Source: a virus
Virus record (IMG/VR): IMGVR_UViG_3300013280_000002
Location: 1-58,585 of that record
Reading direction: 5' to 3' (one strand)
Length of the DNA stretch: 58,585 nt
Shown here: piece by piece, positions 1 to 58,585 of the stretch
How positions within the stretch are numbered: position 1 is the first letter of the stretch
How the letters are laid out: every line of letters begins with the position of its first letter
Notes under the pieces: model-generated
Told to the model about the DNA's origin: nothing
The model's database searches: none
What the model saw: only the letters and a program-made list of their open reading frames with translations
Translations under genes and position numbers: made by a program

Positions 1-107
1 GCCTGGAGCTGCACAGTGCTCAACCCCTTGTGGCACCACAGCGCAGTCTGAGGATTCACCTTCAACCTCACTTCACCTTTCGCATTGCAGATCATCGCAC
101 GCACAGC
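1..107. repeat. terminal direct repeat copy 1 (identical to 58479..58585); circular-closure overlap
   Basis: Bases 1-107 read identically at 58479-58585. The repeat lies inside the terL reading frame and keeps it in phase. Confidence 0.95.
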
Positions 108-26668: not shown

Positions 26669-26726
26669 TCGATTTTTAGATGTCGATAAAAATCTTTTTA
26701 CGGGCAAGCAAGCCTGAAAAAGGGGC

Positions 26727-26754
26727 TTGCATCTTTGTCCAGTTCGTCTATAGT
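26727..26754 (+). promoter_or_regulatory. sigma70-like promoter TTGCAT-16-TATAGT
   Basis: Intergenic region 26669..26820, upstream of paralog A. Confidence 0.5.
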
Positions 26755-26820
26755 ACGATTCATGGATGCAGCGGTGCATCAGACAACGGTCGAAAGACCA
26801 TCTCCCTCTAGGAGCTTAAA

Positions 26821-27336
26821 ATGATCAACTTCAACGAACTGGGCAAAGTGGAACTCCGTCAGGCCTGCAAGGAAGCTGGCATCAAGAACTACGGCAAGAT
26901 GAACAATGACGGCATGCGTGCCGCACTGGAAGCGCACTCCAAGCCTGTGCAAGAACAGGTGGAAGCTGTGGTCACCAAGGTAGTACAGGAAGAAGCACCT
27001 GTCAGCACCCCGAGCGGTCTGGCAACGATGGTTCAACAGATGGGTGCCAACCAGAAGAAGGAAGAGGAGCGCAGCGCTCCCGCCGCTGCCAAGCGCACCA
27101 GCAGCGGCCTGAAGATTGAAAAGGCCCGCGAAGAACGCAACGGCATCAAGAAGCCTTCCGTGGGCGGTCAGTGCCGCGCTGTGTGGGATGCGCTGGATGA
27201 CATGGTGGCAGCGGGCACTCAGCCTACCGCCAAGCACGTGAAGGCGCTGGCTGAAGAGCGCGGCTGGAATGCGAACAATGCGTCCATCGAGTTCTACCAG
27301 TGGCGCAAGTTCAACGGCATCCGCGGCCGTCAGTAA
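26821..27336 (+). CDS. paralog A: SAP/HeH (Rho_N-like) N-terminus plus shared C-terminal W-rich domain
   Basis: LGKVELRQACKEAGIKNYGKMNNDGMRAAL at the N-terminus. C-terminus ...CRAVWDALD...GWNANNASIEFYQWRKFNGIRGR. Confidence 0.75.
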   Translation: MINFNELGKVELRQACKEAGIKNYGKMNNDGMRAALEAHSKPVQEQVEAVVTKVVQEEAPVSTPSGLATMVQQMGANQKKEEERSAPAAAKRTSSGLKIEKAREERNGIKKPSVGGQCRAVWDALDDMVAAGTQPTAKHVKALAEERGWNANNASIEFYQWRKFNGIRGRQ

Positions 27337-27346
27337 TAACAGCAAC

Positions 27347-27364
27347 GAGGGGCGAAAGCCCCTC
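27347..27364 (+). other. GNRA-loop hairpin GAGGGGC-GAAA-GCCCCTC (no T-tract)
   Basis: Perfect 7-bp stem 10 nt after the paralog A stop. Confidence 0.5.
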
Positions 27365-27393
27365 CGGAGGTACTCTTTAGATGCGAGGCGAAG

Positions 27394-28065
27394 ATGTACG
27401 TTAGTCTTGACATGCAGAACATGAGGATCGTTCATAAGCATTCGTCCGTGAATGCTGTGTGCGGTCTGGTCCATATTGAACTCCCCGACGTCGCAGTGAA
27501 TGTCTGTCCGATCGACATGGCAGTCAAGCACAAGACCGACATGGAGATCAAGATGCTTTTCCGATCGTGCTTTCCGGGGCAAACTGACCACATGCCCGTC
27601 GCGGAGATGAAGTCCAAGATCCTCCAGTTTGCGGAAGAGTTCCCTGTTACGGATCTGGACGAGCTTGAAGTCAGGCGCCAGGCAGACAGTATTCGGGACG
27701 GCGACAAGAAGGCCTACAAGTATGTGAAGGGTTCGTTCCGCGCTTCCCGTCCTGCGGAGTTGTTTGCCGACGCTACGGGCGACGCTGTGCGTGCCGGTGC
27801 TACCGTACCGGCCAGCAGTGCTGCGCGGCCTGCGCGGCCCGCTGCCGCCCCGCGCGCTGCAACTGGTGCTCCAAGGGCCAGCGGTGTGCGCGAGAAGATC
27901 TGGGCAGTCGCTGACCGCATGTGGGAGGAAGCTGGAAAGCCAACTGAAAAGAGCACAGTCCTCGCCTTGCGCAAGGATATCATGAGCGCACTGGAGCAGG
28001 ATGGGGTGAAGCGCACCAGCAGCTCCAATGAGCTCGGCAACTGGCAGAAAGCGCGCATCGCGTAA
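27394..28065 (+). CDS. paralog B: unknown N-terminal domain, A/P/R linker, divergent copy of the shared C-terminal domain
   Basis: C-terminus REKIWAVADRMW...GVKRTSSSNELGNWQKARIA aligns with A and C. GAGG RBS. The start is uncertain. Confidence 0.6.
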   Translation: MYVSLDMQNMRIVHKHSSVNAVCGLVHIELPDVAVNVCPIDMAVKHKTDMEIKMLFRSCFPGQTDHMPVAEMKSKILQFAEEFPVTDLDELEVRRQADSIRDGDKKAYKYVKGSFRASRPAELFADATGDAVRAGATVPASSAARPARPAAAPRAATGAPRASGVREKIWAVADRMWEEAGKPTEKSTVLALRKDIMSALEQDGVKRTSSSNELGNWQKARIA

Positions 28066-28083
28066 GATATCCGATTTGCCCTC

Positions 28084-28112
28084 TTGCACTCCTGCTCCTG
28101 GAGTGTTACATT
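28084..28112 (+). promoter_or_regulatory. sigma70-like promoter TTGCAC-17-TACATT
   Basis: Intergenic region, upstream of paralog C. Confidence 0.5.
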
Positions 28113-28161
28113 GCAATCCCGTCCATCAAAGGACTGTATTCACTTTCACTGGAGAAAGACC

Positions 28162-28665
28162 ATGACCGAGAAGACCGCCGAACAGATCGCTGCCGAGCAG
28201 GCCGAAGCCCAGCGCAAGGCTGACGAAAAAGCTGCCGAGAAGGCCCGCAAGGAAGCCGAGAAGGCTGAAGCGAAGGCCAAGCGCGAAGCCGAAGCTGCCG
28301 AGAAGAAGGCCCAGGAAAAGGCCGACCGCGAAGCCAAGAAGGCTGCCGAGAAGGCGGCGAAGGAACAAGCCAAGCTCGATGCCAAGGCTGCCCGCGAAGC
28401 CACCCGCATGCCGGAGCAGAACGGTATCCGCCGTCCGAAGCCCGACACCCTCTGCGGCAAGGCCTGGGGCATCTTCGACAGCGTGTCGCAGAAGAACGGC
28501 GCTCCCGCGTCCATCGGCGAGTCCATGGAACTGGCCAAGGCCGACGGTCTGAACGAAGCCAACGTCCGTGCCGAATACGCCCGCTGGCGCAAGTTCCACG
28601 GCATCACCGGCCGTATCGAGTCCCCGAAGGCCGAAACGACCTCCTCCGGCGCCGAGCAGGCCTAA
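28162..28665 (+). CDS. paralog C: K/A/E-rich helical N-terminus plus shared C-terminal W-rich domain
   Basis: GGAGAAAG RBS. AEKARKEAEKAEAKAKREAEAAEKKAQEK... at the N-terminus. C-terminus CGKAWGIFD...GLNEANVRAEYARWRKFHGITGR. Confidence 0.75.
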   Translation: MTEKTAEQIAAEQAEAQRKADEKAAEKARKEAEKAEAKAKREAEAAEKKAQEKADREAKKAAEKAAKEQAKLDAKAAREATRMPEQNGIRRPKPDTLCGKAWGIFDSVSQKNGAPASIGESMELAKADGLNEANVRAEYARWRKFHGITGRIESPKAETTSSGAEQA

Positions 28666-28710
28666 CCTGCTACAATAAAGCACCCTGGGCATCCGCCCAG
28701 CGGGAAACCT

Positions 28711-28736
28711 GCAAAGGGGCAGAGATGCCCCTTTGC
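28711..28736 (+). other. 10-bp perfect hairpin GCAAAGGGGC-agagat-GCCCCTTTGC (no T-tract)
   Basis: Lies between paralog C and queE. Confidence 0.5.
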
Positions 28737-28755
28737 TATCTACCCCGGAGGTTCC

Positions 28756-29463
28756 ATGAACTTACAACCAATCGAGAAGCGCACCAAGAGCGGTGACGTC
28801 CTGCTGTCCCTACACAGCATCTTTCACACCATCCAGGGCGAAGGCCCTTTCTGCGGAACTCCTTCCGTATTCGTCCGACTCGCAGGGTGCAATCTCCAAT
28901 GCCCCGCATGCGACACCGACTACACCCAAGGCCGGCGCGTTGCAAGCACCCAAGAGATCCTCGCCAAGGTGCAGGAATACCAGTCGAGCGGCCTTGTGGT
29001 CATCACCGGCGGCGAACCATTTCGCCAGGACATCACACGACTCCTCAACGTGCTGACCGATGCGGGCTTCTATGTCCAGATCGAGACTAACGGTACGCTC
29101 GAACCTGTCGAGTACCCTTACAGCACCATGCCCGACATTCGAACGGGCGTCTATGTGGTGTGCAGCCCCAAAGCTGGTAAGGTGCATCCCCGCACCAACG
29201 ACGTTGCCTGCTGCTTCAAATACGTGATCGCACATGACAGCATCCATGAGGATGACGGTCTGCCCTTGCGCGCTCTGGAGCATCAGGCAAGCCCGTATGT
29301 CGCCCGTCCGCCCAAGAACTGGGCGCGTCCGATTTACCTGCAACCGATGGACGCTAAAGACGACAGCATCAACCGACTGAACTTGCAAGCGGCCATCCGC
29401 TCCTGCATGAAGTTCGGTTACATCCTTCAACTACAGATCCACAAGATCATCGAAATGGAGTGA
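28756..29463 (+). CDS. queE: 7-carboxy-7-deazaguanine synthase QueE (radical SAM)
   Basis: FVRLAGCNLQCPACDTDY (C-X3-C-X2-C) and ITGGEP. GGAGG RBS. Confidence 0.88.
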   Translation: MNLQPIEKRTKSGDVLLSLHSIFHTIQGEGPFCGTPSVFVRLAGCNLQCPACDTDYTQGRRVASTQEILAKVQEYQSSGLVVITGGEPFRQDITRLLNVLTDAGFYVQIETNGTLEPVEYPYSTMPDIRTGVYVVCSPKAGKVHPRTNDVACCFKYVIAHDSIHEDDGLPLRALEHQASPYVARPPKNWARPIYLQPMDAKDDSINRLNLQAAIRSCMKFGYILQLQIHKIIEME

Positions 29464-29466
29464 GCT

Positions 29467-30867
29467 ATGTGCGCAATCATTGGCGCCTTGGTGTGGGGCT
29501 TGACCACACCTGAAGCACGGTCACAGGCCAACAGCCTGCTGAACCATATCATTCAGCAGAGCCACGAGCGCGGTCGCGACGGTCGGGGCTTCCTGACGAA
29601 CTACGGTGACGACATCGTTATCGAGAAGAGCACCGACCGCAAGGACGCGAAGGACTGGACGTCTGTCGAGTTCTTCAAGAGCGACGTGTCGTCCGCTACC
29701 TTTATCAGCAACCTGCGAGCCGAGCCGACAACCGAGTACGTCGCTGACAAGTCCCAGGACGATCAGCAACCTTACAGCGCGGGGCACTGGTCTATCGTGC
29801 ATAACGGCACCATCGCCAACGATAAGGCGCTGCGCACGGGCAAGGTGCCCACCCGCATCGACAGCGCGGCGATCGCGGAAGTCCTGGACGCCACCCTCTG
29901 TGACGGTTCCAATGCGTACCGAACCGCTCTGCACTTCATCGAGAGTGTGAAGAAACTCAAGGGCAGCTATGCGATCCTGGCGACCCATAGCGAGCAGAAG
30001 AATCATCTGCTGGTGGCAGCAAACTACCGCCCCATCTGGTTCGTCGTAACCGAAGTCGGCGTCTTCTTTGCAAGCGCGCGCCACTACTTTCCCGACAACA
30101 TGACTCCGCGCATGGTCGATCCATATTCGGTCATGAGTTTCTACTTCAGCGATCATCTTGAGATCCGCGGCGAGTCCCTGTACGACGTGGGCGCTCGTTC
30201 CAAGGCGCTCGTCGTGTGTAGCGGCGGACTGGACAGTGTGGTCGCTGCCACTTACGTCAAGAAGGTGCTGGGCTACGATGTGACGCTGGTGCATTTCAGG
30301 TATGGCAGCCGCGCGGAGGGCCCGGAGGTCTCTGCTATCTGGAAGGTGGCAGGAGCGCTCGGTGTGGGGCTGTGGATCCGCACAATCGACGCCTACGAGC
30401 CGGGCGATTCACCTTTGCTTCAAGCTGACAGCAAGATCGCTGGCGGTGAAGAGGGTGCCGAGTTCGCTCACGAGTGGGTTCCTGCTCGGAATCTGCTCAT
30501 GCTCGCACACGCCACCGCAATGGCAGAAGCGAAAGGGTTTGACACGCTGGTCCTCGGTAACAACCTCGAGGAAGCTGGTGCGTATCCTGACAACGAACCC
30601 GAGTTCATTGCCAAGTTCAACGACCTGCTGCCTTTCGCAGTTGGCGATGGAAAGCGCATGCGAGTCATGATGCCTGTGGGCAACCTGATGAAGCATGAGA
30701 TCGTGGCGCTGGGGCACCGCATTGGCGCACCGCTCGACAAGACCTGGAGCTGCTACCGTGCGGGCGAGCAGCATTGCGGGACGTGCGGTCCGTGCTACAT
30801 GCGACGCACCGCGTTTGACATCAACGGCCTCGAAGAGGTCATTTCTTACAGTAAAGACAAGGAGTAA
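29467..30867 (+). CDS. queC: Gat-QueC fusion: class II glutamine amidotransferase + 7-cyano-7-deazaguanine synthase
   Basis: N-terminal MCAIIG (Ntn Cys). QueC PP-loop CSGGLDS at aa ~251 and zinc site CYRAGEQHCGTCGPCYMR. Confidence 0.88.
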   Translation: MCAIIGALVWGLTTPEARSQANSLLNHIIQQSHERGRDGRGFLTNYGDDIVIEKSTDRKDAKDWTSVEFFKSDVSSATFISNLRAEPTTEYVADKSQDDQQPYSAGHWSIVHNGTIANDKALRTGKVPTRIDSAAIAEVLDATLCDGSNAYRTALHFIESVKKLKGSYAILATHSEQKNHLLVAANYRPIWFVVTEVGVFFASARHYFPDNMTPRMVDPYSVMSFYFSDHLEIRGESLYDVGARSKALVVCSGGLDSVVAATYVKKVLGYDVTLVHFRYGSRAEGPEVSAIWKVAGALGVGLWIRTIDAYEPGDSPLLQADSKIAGGEEGAEFAHEWVPARNLLMLAHATAMAEAKGFDTLVLGNNLEEAGAYPDNEPEFIAKFNDLLPFAVGDGKRMRVMMPVGNLMKHEIVALGHRIGAPLDKTWSCYRAGEQHCGTCGPCYMRRTAFDINGLEEVISYSKDKE

Positions 30868-36384: not shown

Positions 36385-36413
36385 TTGCATCTGCTCAAGA
36401 AGTGTCCTACAGT
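36385..36413 (+). promoter_or_regulatory. sigma70-like promoter TTGCAT-17-TACAGT
   Basis: Lies downstream of the pol stop and is followed by a ~160-nt leader containing the 9-bp inverted repeat GGCCGCGCT/AGCGCGGCC. Confidence 0.45.
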
Positions 36414-58345: not shown

Positions 58346-58585
58346 TCAATAAGTGCCCGTAACTGTACCAGATTTCGTAATGATGCGTCCCATAGGCCAA
58401 TGATAATCCACAAAATACCCGATCGCCGTGGTGATGTGTTGATACTGGTTCTTCTGATCCTCTTGGAAAGACGAGCCAGCCTGGAGCTGCACAGTGCTCA
58501 ACCCCTTGTGGCACCACAGCGCAGTCTGAGGATTCACCTTCAACCTCACTTCACCTTTCGCATTGCAGATCATCGCACGCACAGC
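58346..58585 (-). CDS. terL: terminase large subunit, C-terminal end (joins 1..1190 across the circular junction)
   Basis: Same frame as 1..1190 once the 107-bp repeat is collapsed. The joined gene is 1323 nt (440 aa). Confidence 0.9.
   Translation of the reverse strand, partial: AVRAMICNAKGEVRLKVNPQTALWCHKGLSTVQLQAGSSFQEDQKNQYQHITTAIGYFVDYHWPMGRIITKSGTVTGTY
58479..58585. repeat. terminal direct repeat copy 2 (identical to 1..107)
   Basis: See copy 1. Confidence 0.95.

What the first reader, a model, noticed from the sequence alone, without database searches (positions are those of the whole stretch)
26669..28740. Three tandem, individually promoted paralogs sharing a novel W-rich C-terminal domain, immediately upstream of the modification island
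Seen in the sequence: three consecutive ORFs (26821..27336, 27394..28065, 28162..28665) end in the same ~55-aa module.
- Paralog A: NGIKKPSVGGQCRAVWDALD...GWNANNASIEFYQWRKFNGIRGR.
- Paralog C: NGIRRPKPDTLCGKAWGIFD...GLNEANVRAEYARWRKFHGITGR.
- Paralog B: a divergent copy, REKIWAVADRMW...SSSNELGNWQKARIA.
At DNA level, A and C share tggcgcaagttc[a/c]acggcatc (27301 and 28585).

Their N-termini differ:
- A has a SAP/HeH (Rho_N-like) motif.
- C has a ~70-aa K/A/E-rich histone-H1/AlgP-like helix.
- B has an unknown domain plus an A/P/R linker.

A and C each have their own TTGCA(T/C)-N16/17-TA(T/C)A(G/T)T promoter and a strong RBS. A and C are each followed by a perfect GC hairpin.

Inference: these are abundant DNA-binding or nucleoid-coating proteins. 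They could work with, target or protect the modified DNA, or remodel the host nucleoid. I do not recognise the shared domain.
Basis: partly seen in the sequence, partly recalled or inferred. Interest (0 to 1): 0.7.

Follow-up and report, generated by a model that had tools for sequence, protein, structure and literature searches.

The report
Phage trio of KfrA-like DNA-binding paralogs
Three neighbouring phage genes share a small three-helix domain that looks like a distant cousin of the DNA-binding head of plasmid KfrA proteins; the family is widespread next to the 7-deazaguanine DNA-modification genes of lytic phages, is uncharacterised, and in a related coliphage one member could not be deleted while another helps the phage escape the BREX defence.

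Summary
The window is a complete Nipunavirus genome (Queuovirinae; NP1/PaMx25-like). ORFs A (26821-27336), B (27394-28065) and C (28162-28665) are real, conserved genes lying between the helicase gene and queE.

- **Shared domain.** A and C share a ~65-aa C-terminal domain (BLASTP E 1e-10; HH probability 99%). B's C-terminus is a divergent copy (HH 94%, E 1.7e-7). Some metagenomic B orthologs carry an A/C-type domain directly.
- **Fold.** AlphaFold predicts a beta-hairpin arm plus three helices (pLDDT 93-98). No Pfam, NCBIfam or PDB family claims the domain.
- **Closest relative.** Profile comparison links it to KfrA_N, the helix-turn-helix head of plasmid KfrA (HH 76-79%, E about 2e-5, about 10 SD above shuffles). 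This link is probable, not proven.
- **Distribution.** The family has more than 2,300 clusters and is almost entirely from lytic phages. A B/C pair sits between helicase and queE in every phage examined that carries this DpdA module, including phages outside Queuovirinae.
- **Function.** 9g DpdA plus Gat-QueC alone modify DNA, so the family is not needed for base exchange. In Seuratvirus Dru_SM1 (preprint), the C-type gene could not be deleted, and deleting an A-like paralog sensitises the phage to BREX type I.

The best reading is DNA-binding regulatory or architectural proteins. This is a moderately interesting new variant of a known kind.

The parts
26671..26699 (+). AT-rich inverted repeat (GATTTTTA / TAAAAATC) followed by TTTTT, just after the helicase stop codon. 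Possible terminator of the upstream operon.
   Evidence: Read directly from the sequence. Conserved in relatives. Not reported by the terminator scan, which requires at least 3 GC pairs.
26708..26730 (+). GC hairpin whose 3' arm overlaps the proposed -35 hexamer of gene A.
   Evidence: Terminator-like scan. The window carries a 5-nt insertion relative to its relatives.
26727..26754 (+). Promoter-like motif TTGCAT-N16-TATAGT upstream of A.
   Evidence: Both hexamers are invariant in 6 Nipunavirus sequences. It fails the generic sigma-70 criteria.
26765..26799 (+). Two small 5'-UTR hairpins of A: GATGCA-GCGG-TGCATC and GGTC-GAAA-GACC.
   Evidence: Fold. Stems are conserved while the loops change (GCGG to GCAG, GAAA to GGAA) in relatives.
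26821..27336 (+). Gene A, 171 aa. HeH/Rho_N-like two-helix N-domain (aa 1-40), disordered linker (aa 41-100), shared C-terminal domain (aa 101-171, nt 27121-27333).
   Evidence: AlphaFold model.
27347..27364 (+). Perfect 7-bp GC hairpin with a GAAA loop after A and no U-tract. Probably an attenuator or mRNA-stabilising hairpin, because B has no promoter downstream of it.
27394..28065 (+). Gene B, 223 aa. Alpha/beta N-domain without structural relatives (aa 1-125), A/P/R-rich disordered linker, divergent copy of the shared domain (aa 163-223, nt 27880-28062).
28084..28112 (+). Promoter-like motif TTGCAC-N17-TACATT upstream of C. The spacer contains the palindrome CTCC-T-GGAG.
28162..28665 (+). 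Gene C, 167 aa. K/A/E-rich charged helix built from internal DNA repeats (aa 1-82, nt 28162-28407), shared domain (aa 83-152, nt 28408-28617), short acidic tail.
28685..28736 (+). Two hairpins after C: a 6-bp stem at 28685-28700 and an 11-bp perfect stem at 28711-28736. The latter is annotated as a terminator in PaMx25.
   Evidence: Fold z-score -4.7.
28756..29463 (+). queE, the first gene of the 7-deazaguanine island. Context only; the island continues with gat-queC, queD, folE and dpdA.

Best explanation
A, B and C are paralogous phage DNA-binding proteins.

**Shared module (predicted).** Each carries one copy of a ~65-residue module: a basic beta-hairpin arm (NG[IV][KR]RP) followed by a three-helix bundle. 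This is most likely a helix-turn-helix domain distantly related to the N-terminal DNA-binding head of plasmid KfrA proteins.

**Inferred mode of binding.** Helix 3, ending in the invariant W-R-K, would act as the recognition helix. Near-invariant N150 falls at the position of KfrA-RA3 S40. The basic arms on either side would contact the grooves or backbone.

**Different partners for the same DNA-binding head:**
- A carries a HeH/Rho_N-like motif.
- B carries an alpha/beta domain without structural relatives.
- C carries a long charged K/A/E helix of the kind KfrA uses to oligomerise.

**Roles (inferred, with some data from relatives).**
- C is the ancient core member. It lies directly upstream of queE in every genome examined, and its counterpart could not be deleted in Seuratvirus Dru_SM1. 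Most probably it is a regulatory or architectural DNA-binding factor of the replication/modification gene block.
- B is an old companion paralog.
- A is an accessory paralog. In 9g, Iggy and Seuratviruses the A-type copy lies in the putative early region (9g_00037 lies just downstream of a BPROM-predicted divergent promoter pair). A family member in that region (Dru_SM1 ORF72, same domain but a different N-terminus) helps the phage overcome BREX type I.

**Shown versus inferred.**
- Shown here: paralogy, fold prediction, distribution and synteny.
- Inferred: DNA binding, targets and timing.
For: **Paralogy**
-.

**Fold**
- AlphaFold gives pLDDT 93-98 for a hairpin plus helices 117-130, 137-147 and 151-164 in A.
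- B has three helices at 165-179, 186-202 and 207-222.
- Landmark residues fall in the same register in both: W at helix 1 +5, D at helix 1 +9, P-T capping helix 2, W at helix 3 +10.

**KfrA_N link**
- KfrA_N is matched by more domain members than any other Pfam family (5 of 53, all sub-threshold). One ortholog has a precomputed PF11740 hit.
- hhalign against 10 genuine KfrA N-termini gives probability 76-79%, E about 2e-5, score 30.6 against shuffled 9.4 +/- 1.8-2.1.
- The KfrA HMM's two best hits in the whole window are the A and B domains.
- The KfrA-RA3 helix-turn-helix was mapped to N29-R52, with S40 critical for DNA binding (PMC7783346).
- The Dru_SM1 authors' HHpred independently returned KfrA_N for ORF72.

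**Context consistent with nucleic-acid binding**
- Domain pI is 9.3-9.9.
- The non-significant Foldseek list is dominated by winged-helix, homeodomain, DtxR and sigma-4 domains.
- Fusions occur to HeH-like and zinc-ribbon modules.
- Some proteins carry 2-3 tandem copies.
- RHEph06 gp063 has the domain followed by a long K/A/E tail, with no comparable stretch before it, the closest match to the KfrA architecture; ART_82 also has a K/A/E-rich stretch after the domain but a K-rich stretch before it too.

**Conservation**
- 42 of 54 evaluable IMG/VR loci have queE downstream, and 39 of those 42 carry the full triad.
- The B/C pair lies between helicase and queE in 9g, Iggy, CAjan, BcepGomr, RHEph06 and ART.

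**Genetics in a relative**
- ORF49 (C-type) was not deletable.
- ORF72 deletion was viable but BREX-I sensitive, and was complemented in trans.
- ORF50 (B N-domain only) was dispensable.
Against: - No member reaches the Pfam KfrA_N gathering score (15 bits against 26.1).
- HH probability is below 80%.
- No KfrA structure exists for comparison, and Foldseek finds nothing significant in the PDB (best E 0.6). Small three-helix bundles are structurally promiscuous.
- No iterated operator-like repeats were found near the promoters or elsewhere in the genome.
- The Dru_SM1 data come from a preprint. 'Not deletable' rests on a plaque-count threshold after genome rebooting.
- ORF72 shares only the C-terminal domain with A; its N-terminus differs.
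- Nothing here shows DNA binding, abundance or timing directly.
Confidence: 0.6

Rival explanations
1. The proteins are accessory factors of the 7-deazaguanine system. They would target DpdA to DNA, read or shield modified DNA (as SPO1 TF1 prefers hmU-DNA), or control expression of the que/dpdA operon.
For: - The C-type gene is immediately upstream of queE in every phage examined with this DpdA module, including non-Queuovirinae.
- Genus-by-genus counts of phages with the domain and with this DpdA type nearly coincide: Escherichia 41/41, Enterobacteria 8/8, Providencia 4/4, Pseudomonas 30/32, Vibrio 20/23.
- In Dru_SM1, deletions of que genes and deletion of ORF72 both cause BREX-I sensitivity.
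Against: - 9g DpdA plus Gat-QueC alone modify 9-18% of plasmid G in E. coli (PMC6884629).
- The whole RecB-helicase...clamp-polymerase block is syntenic, so adjacency may be inherited rather than functional.
- dpdA-positive Mycobacterium phages gave no hit in the tblastn domain search (E <= 1e-3); several of these records instead annotate a ParB-like gene beside dpdA. Streptococcus Dp-1 also gave no hit.
- ORF72 deletion does not give the 'restriction-like' sensitivity that que deletions give.
- A-type copies lie about 20 kb from the island in 9g, Iggy and Seuratviruses.
Confidence: 0.15
2. The shared domain is a protein-protein interaction module rather than a DNA binder. It would dock different N-terminal effectors onto a common host or phage target, for example RNA polymerase, the replisome or a defence protein such as a BREX component.
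For: - The only functional datum for the family is anti-defence: Dru_SM1 ORF72 against BREX I, AVAST III and qatABCD.
- No operator-like repeats were found.
- One constant domain with variable partner domains also fits an adaptor logic.
Against: - The best remote homolog is a proven DNA-binding head.
- The domains are basic.
- Fusions are to nucleic-acid-type modules (HeH, zinc ribbon), and tandem arrays occur.
Confidence: 0.15
3. C (with B) is a replication-initiation or replisome-organising protein of this phage group: an origin-binding factor placed between the helicase and the polymerase/clamp genes.
For: - The genes sit inside the replication module, and the arrangement is conserved with helicase, clamp and PolB.
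- C-type ORF49 was not deletable, like the helicase ORF51.
- No origin-binding protein is annotated in these genomes.
Against: - No similarity to known initiators or helicase loaders.
- No iterons were detected.
- The coiled-coil tail and own promoter and terminator fit a regulator or architectural protein at least as well.
Confidence: 0.1

Closest known systems
KfrA N-terminal DNA-binding domain (Pfam PF11740, KfrA_N) of IncP/IncU plasmids
   Same: - About 50-residue three-helix head with the same motif order: hydrophobic helix 1 (x-I/V-W/F-x-x-A-D), G-x-x-P-T capping helix 2, a turn, and helix 3 ending in W-R.
- Profile-profile probability 76-79%.
- Associated with long charged alpha-helical tails. 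The domain-then-tail order is seen most clearly in RHEph06 gp063.
   Different: - Below the Pfam threshold.
- Carries an extra N-terminal basic beta-hairpin (NG[IV][KR]RP) and a C-terminal F-x-G-I-x-G-R extension.
- In window C the tail precedes the domain.
- Encoded by lytic phages, not plasmids: only 1 weak PLSDB hit and 7 loci in 185,579 species genomes.
- No partition partners and no iterated operator were found.
Dru_SM1 ORF72 (NGRRMQZB_79), anti-BREX type I gene of a Seuratvirus (preprint 10.1101/2024.04.14.589459)
   Same: - Same C-terminal domain (BLASTP to A E 2e-10; phrog_22313 is also hit by A).
- Same phage subfamily.
- The authors' HHpred call was KfrA_N.
   Different: - Different N-terminal region, with no HeH motif.
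- Located in the putative early region, not next to queE.
- Its mechanism is unknown, so its phenotype cannot simply be transferred to A, B or C of this window.
SPO1 TF1, a phage histone-like protein preferring hmU-modified DNA (functional analogy, from general knowledge)
   Same: A small phage-encoded DNA-binding protein in a phage with modified DNA.
   Different: TF1 is an HU-family dimer, a fold unrelated to a helix-turn-helix. No preference for modified DNA has been shown or tested for A, B or C.
Rho_N / SAP / HeH helix-extended-helix motifs (N-terminus of A only)
   Same: Two short helices at aa 9-19 and 29-40 with the L-x-x-L-R-x-x-A-K-x-x-G-I pattern. Foldseek aligns the Rho N-domain at rmsd 1.1 A over 36 residues. 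Pfam Rho_N E 0.05.
   Different: All scores are below significance thresholds. The motif is absent from B, C and many A-position orthologs, which carry other N-terminal modules.

Membership tests
KfrA_N (PF11740) | Score at or above the Pfam gathering threshold (26.1 bits) | tested here: not met
   A scores 15.3 bits, E 0.034. Only 5 of 53 domain sequences hit at E < 1, best 0.0058.
KfrA_N (PF11740) | Profile-level similarity across the whole three-helix head, with the conserved G-x-x-P-T and W-R motifs in register | tested here: met
   - hhalign against 10 annotated KfrA N-termini gives probability 75.7-78.6%, E 1.7-2.4e-5, over 44-46 columns.
- None of 150 and none of 100 column shuffles came close: maxima 18.5 and 16.3 against about 30.6.
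- Support is moderate, not decisive.
KfrA_N (PF11740) | Helix-turn-helix fold of the head domain | tested here: inconclusive
   AlphaFold predicts three helices at high confidence. No KfrA structure is in the PDB, and Foldseek hits to HTH and winged-helix domains are non-significant (E >= 0.6).
KfrA-type proteins | N-terminal head followed by a long alpha-helical coiled-coil tail used for oligomerisation | tested here: inconclusive
   - In window C the K/A/E helix is N-terminal to the domain.
- RHEph06 gp063 has the K/A/E tail only after the domain (head-then-tail); ART_82 has charged K-rich stretches on both sides; BcepGomr gp38 has tails on both sides.
- A and B have no such tail.
KfrA-type proteins | Binds iterated repeats overlapping its own promoter (autoregulation); plasmid-borne, with partition partners | tested here: not met
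   - No iterated repeats near the A or C promoters or elsewhere.
- The family is essentially absent from plasmids and bacterial genomes.
- Binding itself cannot be tested with these tools.
PHROG families 21588 (A), 7864 (B), 18634 (C); all 'unknown function' | Full-length match to the family profile | tested here: met
   E 1.3e-100, 1.5e-91 and 9.3e-85, each end to end. Cross-hits of A and C to phrogs 11298, 17772 and 22313 occur through the shared domain.
Rho_N / SAP / HeH motif (A N-terminus) | Significant sequence or structure match to the helix-extended-helix motif | tested here: inconclusive
   Pfam Rho_N scores 14 bits against a 24.9 cut-off. Foldseek hits to Rho N-domains have probability 0.44-0.60 but E 3.6-6.5.
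Histone H1 / AlgP-like basic tails (C N-terminus) | Strongly basic K/A/P-rich repeats with few acidic residues | tested here: not met
   Residues 1-82 hold 17 K + 6 R against 17 E + 3 D, net +3, with no proline repeats. The best, sub-threshold, match is the TolA helical region, TIGR02794 E 3e-7.
DpdB / ParB-like partner of DpdA | ParB-like nuclease/ATPase domain encoded next to dpdA | tested here: not met
   No ParB-type hit in Pfam or NCBIfam for A, B or C. ParB-like genes accompany dpdA in several Mycobacterium phage records instead.

The most novel reading that the evidence does not exclude
The family is a phage-specific class of KfrA-like DNA organisers tied to 7-deazaguanine genomes.
- The non-deletable C-type protein would polymerise through its charged helix on phage DNA. 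It would couple replication or transcription of the replication-modification block to the modified state of the DNA, for example by reading modified DNA or excluding host factors.
- A-type paralogs would be a new, DNA-binding (not DNA-mimic) kind of anti-BREX factor that hides phage DNA from BREX.
Probability: 0.15. Interest if true: 0.75.

Novelty: new variant of a known kind. Interest (0 to 1): 0.5.

Why it matters
- **Size of the gap.** This is a very large family (more than 2,300 clusters at 50% identity, 1,427 at E <= 1e-10) that no curated database names.
- **Conserved position.** It has a fixed place in a replication-plus-DNA-modification supermodule shared by Queuovirinae, Iggyvirus, Kleczkowskavirus, BcepGomr and ART-like phages. 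Many of these are phage-therapy candidates against Pseudomonas, E. coli, Vibrio and Xanthomonas.
- **Functional hints.** In the one genome-wide deletion screen found for a relative, one member appears essential and another counters BREX.
- **Testable hypothesis.** Assigning the domain to the KfrA_N/HTH lineage gives a concrete hypothesis: DNA binding through helix 3.
- **Broader link.** It also connects plasmid 'cytoskeletal' DNA-binding proteins to lytic phage biology and to anti-defence.

Tried and rejected
- **CP12 domain.** A residues 98-137 hit PDB 6gfo_E at E 0.006 and Pfam CP12 at E 0.05-0.3. Rejected: only a short C-x-x-W-D-x-L stretch matches, it is below threshold, it appears in 4 of 53 members, and CP12 is a disordered chloroplast regulator.
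- **DUF1889 / YoaC.** Top Foldseek hit 2jn8 at E 0.6; Pfam E 0.025 in 2 members. Not significant.
- **'Transcriptional activator FtrA domain', 'plectin', 'colicin-uptake membrane protein' and similar database names.** These are compositional artefacts of the K/A/E-rich helix.
- **Foldseek searches.** Full-length B against the PDB and BFVD returned only uncharacterised phage homologs. A against the PDB returned nothing below E 0.6.
- **PDB sequence-profile search.** Nothing.
- **NCBIfam.** Nothing.
- **Rfam on the whole window.** Nothing, so no preQ1 riboswitch ahead of queE.
- **Operator-like repeats.** Searches in the locus and the genome found none.
- **RK2 record BN000925.** Not in the plasmid collection. 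A consensus-style KfrA query was used instead to fish out annotated KfrA genes.
- **Literature.** Searches on Nipunavirus and Queuovirinae transcription or function found no study of these genes.
Full report
**What the window is.** The 2-kb region matches 20 phage records. Sixteen of them cover at least 80% of it, at 87-95% identity. They are Nipunavirus members (Queuovirinae: NP1, PaMx25, Quinobequin-P09, JG012, PAJD-1, the Xanthomonas phage DoCa3 and others), where all the corresponding genes are annotated 'hypothetical protein'. The identical A protein is on record from a 58,585-bp contig. The window ends in a 107-nt direct repeat of its start, so it is a circularly closed, complete genome. 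The local gene order is: ligase, topoisomerase-like, RecA/Sak4-like, DUF669, RecB/Cas4 exonuclease, helicase, A, B, C, queE, gat-queC, queD, folE, dpdA, clamp, PolB.

**Checking the observation.** ORFs A (26821-27336, 171 aa), B (27394-28065, 223 aa) and C (28162-28665, 167 aa) are present. They match PHROGs 21588, 7864 and 18634 end to end.
- A and C share their C-termini: 34% identity over 67 residues, E 1e-10; profile-profile probability 99%, E 1.5e-18. A 43-nt stretch is 79% identical at DNA level.
- B is not significant pairwise. Three independent results show that its C-terminus is a divergent copy:
  - The A/C profile, run over all 781 six-frame segments of the window, hits A, C and then B's C-terminus across the whole domain (E 0.004). 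The next hit is E 1.9.
  - Domain-only hhalign gives 69% probability, rising to 94% (E 1.7e-7) with an 80-sequence profile. Column-shuffled controls never come close.
  - In three metagenomic phages (L077, L093, L095), the protein carrying the B N-domain ends in a domain that hits the A/C profile at 1e-8 to 1e-10.
- The hairpins after A and C exist.
- The promoter motif exists at both places, with a third copy at 36385 just after the polymerase gene. It is invariant among relatives. However, it is a poor match to the sigma-70 -35 hexamer, and the generic scan finds nothing. 'Individually promoted' is therefore plausible for A and C but unproven.
- B has no such motif. In relatives it is translationally coupled to a 58-codon ORF that this window has lost through a ~175-bp deletion between CGGAGG repeats. 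The U-less hairpin after A must therefore be read through.

**What the shared domain is.**
- No Pfam, NCBIfam or PDB sequence family claims it.
- With family alignments, AlphaFold predicts at pLDDT 93-98 a short beta-hairpin (the NG[IV][KR]RP motif) followed by three helices in A, and three helices in B. The conserved landmarks are in identical helical register: W at helix 1 +5, D at +9, P-T capping helix 2, and W at helix 3 +10.
- Foldseek finds nothing significant. The weak list consists mainly of winged-helix, homeodomain, DtxR, DosR and sigma-4 domains, plus Rho N-domains for the N-terminus of A.
- Among sub-threshold Pfam hits, KfrA_N (PF11740) is the family matched by the most members.

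To test the KfrA_N link, I retrieved ten genuine KfrA genes from plasmids, annotated KfrA or 'DNA-binding protein', of IncP, IncU, IncC and other types.
- Profile-profile comparison gives probability 76-79%, E about 2e-5, over the whole three-helix head. This is 10-12 SD above column shuffles.
- The KfrA HMM's best two hits in the entire window are the domains of A and B.
- In KfrA of plasmid RA3, the helix-turn-helix was mapped to N29-R52 by modelling and alanine scanning, with S40 critical (PMC7783346). In the alignment this corresponds to helices 2-3 of the phage domain, with S40 opposite the near-invariant N150 and W51-R52 opposite the invariant W161-R162.

The relationship is probable but not proven. 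The Pfam threshold is not met, and no KfrA structure exists.

**Domain partners.**
- The N-terminus of A is a two-helix HeH/Rho_N-like motif on weak evidence.
- Residues 1-125 of B form a confidently predicted alpha/beta domain (pLDDT about 98). It has no structural relative in the PDB, and only uncharacterised homologs in BFVD.
- Residues 1-82 of C are a K/A/E-rich charged helix encoded by internal DNA repeats. Its length varies among orthologs, which range from 130 to 167 aa. It is nearly neutral (net +3), so it resembles TolA or a KfrA tail rather than H1 or AlgP.
- Elsewhere the same domain follows zinc ribbons or other N-modules, occurs two or three times in one protein, or precedes a long K/A/E tail, which is exactly the KfrA layout (RHEph06 gp063).

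**Distribution and context.**
- A full HMM search finds 2,361 cluster representatives at E <= 1e-3 and 1,427 at E <= 1e-10.
- Among 185,579 species genomes there are only 7 loci, mostly mis-binned ~57-kb phage contigs. Plasmids give one weak hit. This is a family of lytic phages.
- In GenBank phages, 127 records carry it, usually twice.
- Genus counts almost coincide with those of this DpdA type (230 records). In contrast, dpdA-positive Mycobacterium phages and Streptococcus Dp-1 gave no hit in the tblastn domain search.
- In 80 IMG/VR loci, 42 of 54 with enough flank have queE downstream, and 39 of those 42 show the A-B-C triad between helicase and queE.
- In 9g and Iggy, a B-type and a C-type gene lie between helicase and queE, while the A-type copy sits in the putative early region. 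CAjan likewise has two genes between helicase and queE, the queE-proximal one C-type; the first (gp47) was not hit by any profile.
- The same B/C pair precedes queE in BcepGomr, Rhizobium phage RHEph06 and the 95-kb Achromobacter phage ART, all outside Queuovirinae.
- The C-type gene directly upstream of queE is therefore the invariant feature. Because the entire helicase-to-polymerase block is syntenic, adjacency alone cannot prove a functional link to modification.

**Functional evidence from relatives.**
- 9g DpdA plus Gat-QueC expressed in E. coli modify 9-18% of plasmid guanines (PMC6884629). The family is therefore not required for base exchange.
- A preprint (10.1101/2024.04.14.589459) deleted ORFs one by one in the Seuratvirus Dru_SM1 (PP596835.1).
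- I mapped their ORF numbers to the GenBank record using the deletion primers and product sizes in their Table S:
  - ORF49 is NGRRMQZB_50 (ends PEALNGL).
  - ORF50 is NGRRMQZB_52 (ends PGRGAKS).
  - ORF72 is NGRRMQZB_79 (ends RKYNGLDA; 615-bp deletion).
- The outcomes were:
  - ORF49 is the C-type gene next to queE and could not be deleted.
  - ORF50 is a B N-domain-only protein and is dispensable.
  - ORF72 carries the family domain (BLASTP to A E 2e-10) but a different N-terminus. Its deletion is viable, but the phage loses infectivity on BREX type I (restored in trans), AVAST III and qatABCD.
- The authors' HHpred call for ORF72 was KfrA_N, an independent agreement with my assignment.
- que-gene deletions gave BREX-I plus 'restriction-like' sensitivity, an overlapping but different pattern.

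**Mechanism.**
- Most likely (about 0.6): these are helix-turn-helix DNA-binding proteins. Helix 3 reads DNA and the flanking basic segments add contacts.
  - C, through its charged helix, probably oligomerises like KfrA. It would serve a core regulatory or architectural role for the replication/modification block.
  - B is a companion paralog with an effector domain of unknown function.
  - A is an accessory paralog, possibly with an anti-defence role.
- Rivals:
  - accessory or reader factors of the deazaguanine system (0.15);
  - a protein-docking module (0.15);
  - an origin-binding or replisome-organising factor (0.10).

**Novelty and verdict.** The domain is not categorically new. It is best seen as a divergent, phage-specific branch of the KfrA_N/HTH lineage with added arms, in new architectures, and with a striking conserved position. 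It is a large, unannotated family with first hints of essentiality and anti-BREX activity, so it is worth experimental follow-up. Interest 0.5.

Noticed in passing
window 1-107 and 58479-58585: Exact 107-nt direct repeat at the two ends of the window. This is the assembly overlap of a circularly closed or permuted genome, so the unique genome length is 58,478 bp.
   Followed up: partly
window 27337-27393, compared with L001 6717-6890 (PaMx25_44): The window lacks a ~175-bp segment encoding a 58-aa hydrophobic small protein. That protein lies between A and B, and is translationally coupled to B, in PaMx25, NP1, Quinobequin-P09, BL5 and JG054. The deletion joins two CGGAGG Shine-Dalgarno-like repeats.
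   Followed up: partly
window 36385-36413 (+): Third exact copy of the TTGCAY-N16/17-TAYAKT motif, 10 nt after the DNA polymerase stop codon. Possibly an internal promoter of the same class. In some metagenomic relatives (L030, L060), and weakly in RHEph06, an extra copy of the shared domain is encoded right after the polymerase gene, but not in this window.
   Followed up: partly
window 26733-26747 and 26834-26848: 15-nt inverted repeat (93% complementary) pairing the spacer of A's putative promoter with codons 5-10 of A. In read-through transcripts from the helicase operon it could sequester A's ribosome-binding site and start codon, so that only promoter-initiated mRNA is translated.
   Followed up: no
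window 27394-27768 (B residues 1-125): Alpha/beta domain predicted at pLDDT about 98 with no structural match in the PDB and only uncharacterised phage homologs in BFVD. In Seuratviruses (Dru_SM1 _52) it occurs as a stand-alone protein without the C-terminal domain, and that gene is dispensable in Dru_SM1; CAjan gp47 occupies the same position but matched none of the profiles used.
   Followed up: partly
window 28192-28402 (C residues about 11-80): The K/A/E-rich helix is encoded by imperfect 45-51-nt DNA repeats. Orthologs differ by whole repeat blocks (130, 136, 145, 153 and 167 aa), so the helix length is a polymorphic trait.
   Followed up: partly
P0273, P0337 (3 copies); P0274, P0275 (2 copies): Metagenomic proteins carry two or three tandem copies of the shared domain, each preceded by the QNG[VI]xRP arm.
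   Followed up: partly
rows H172-H179 (Mycobacterium and Rhodococcus phages): In actinophages, dpdA is the second gene of the genome, directly next to a ParB-like nuclease or HTH gene. This recalls the bacterial DpdA-DpdB pair and means a different DNA-binding partner lies next to dpdA than in Queuovirinae.
   Followed up: no
window 29467-30867: The queC homolog is a 466-aa glutamine-amidotransferase-QueC fusion (Gat-QueC), as in phage 9g. This suggests the phage makes dG+ (archaeosine-type) rather than only dPreQ0 DNA.
   Followed up: no
MT135025.1 Vibrio phage V07 (349 kb): This 'jumbo' record carries both the domain (about 240 kb) and a Queuovirinae-type dpdA (about 279 kb), 62-63% identical to this window's versions. 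It may be a concatenated or chimeric assembly containing a ~58-kb Queuovirinae-like genome.
   Followed up: no
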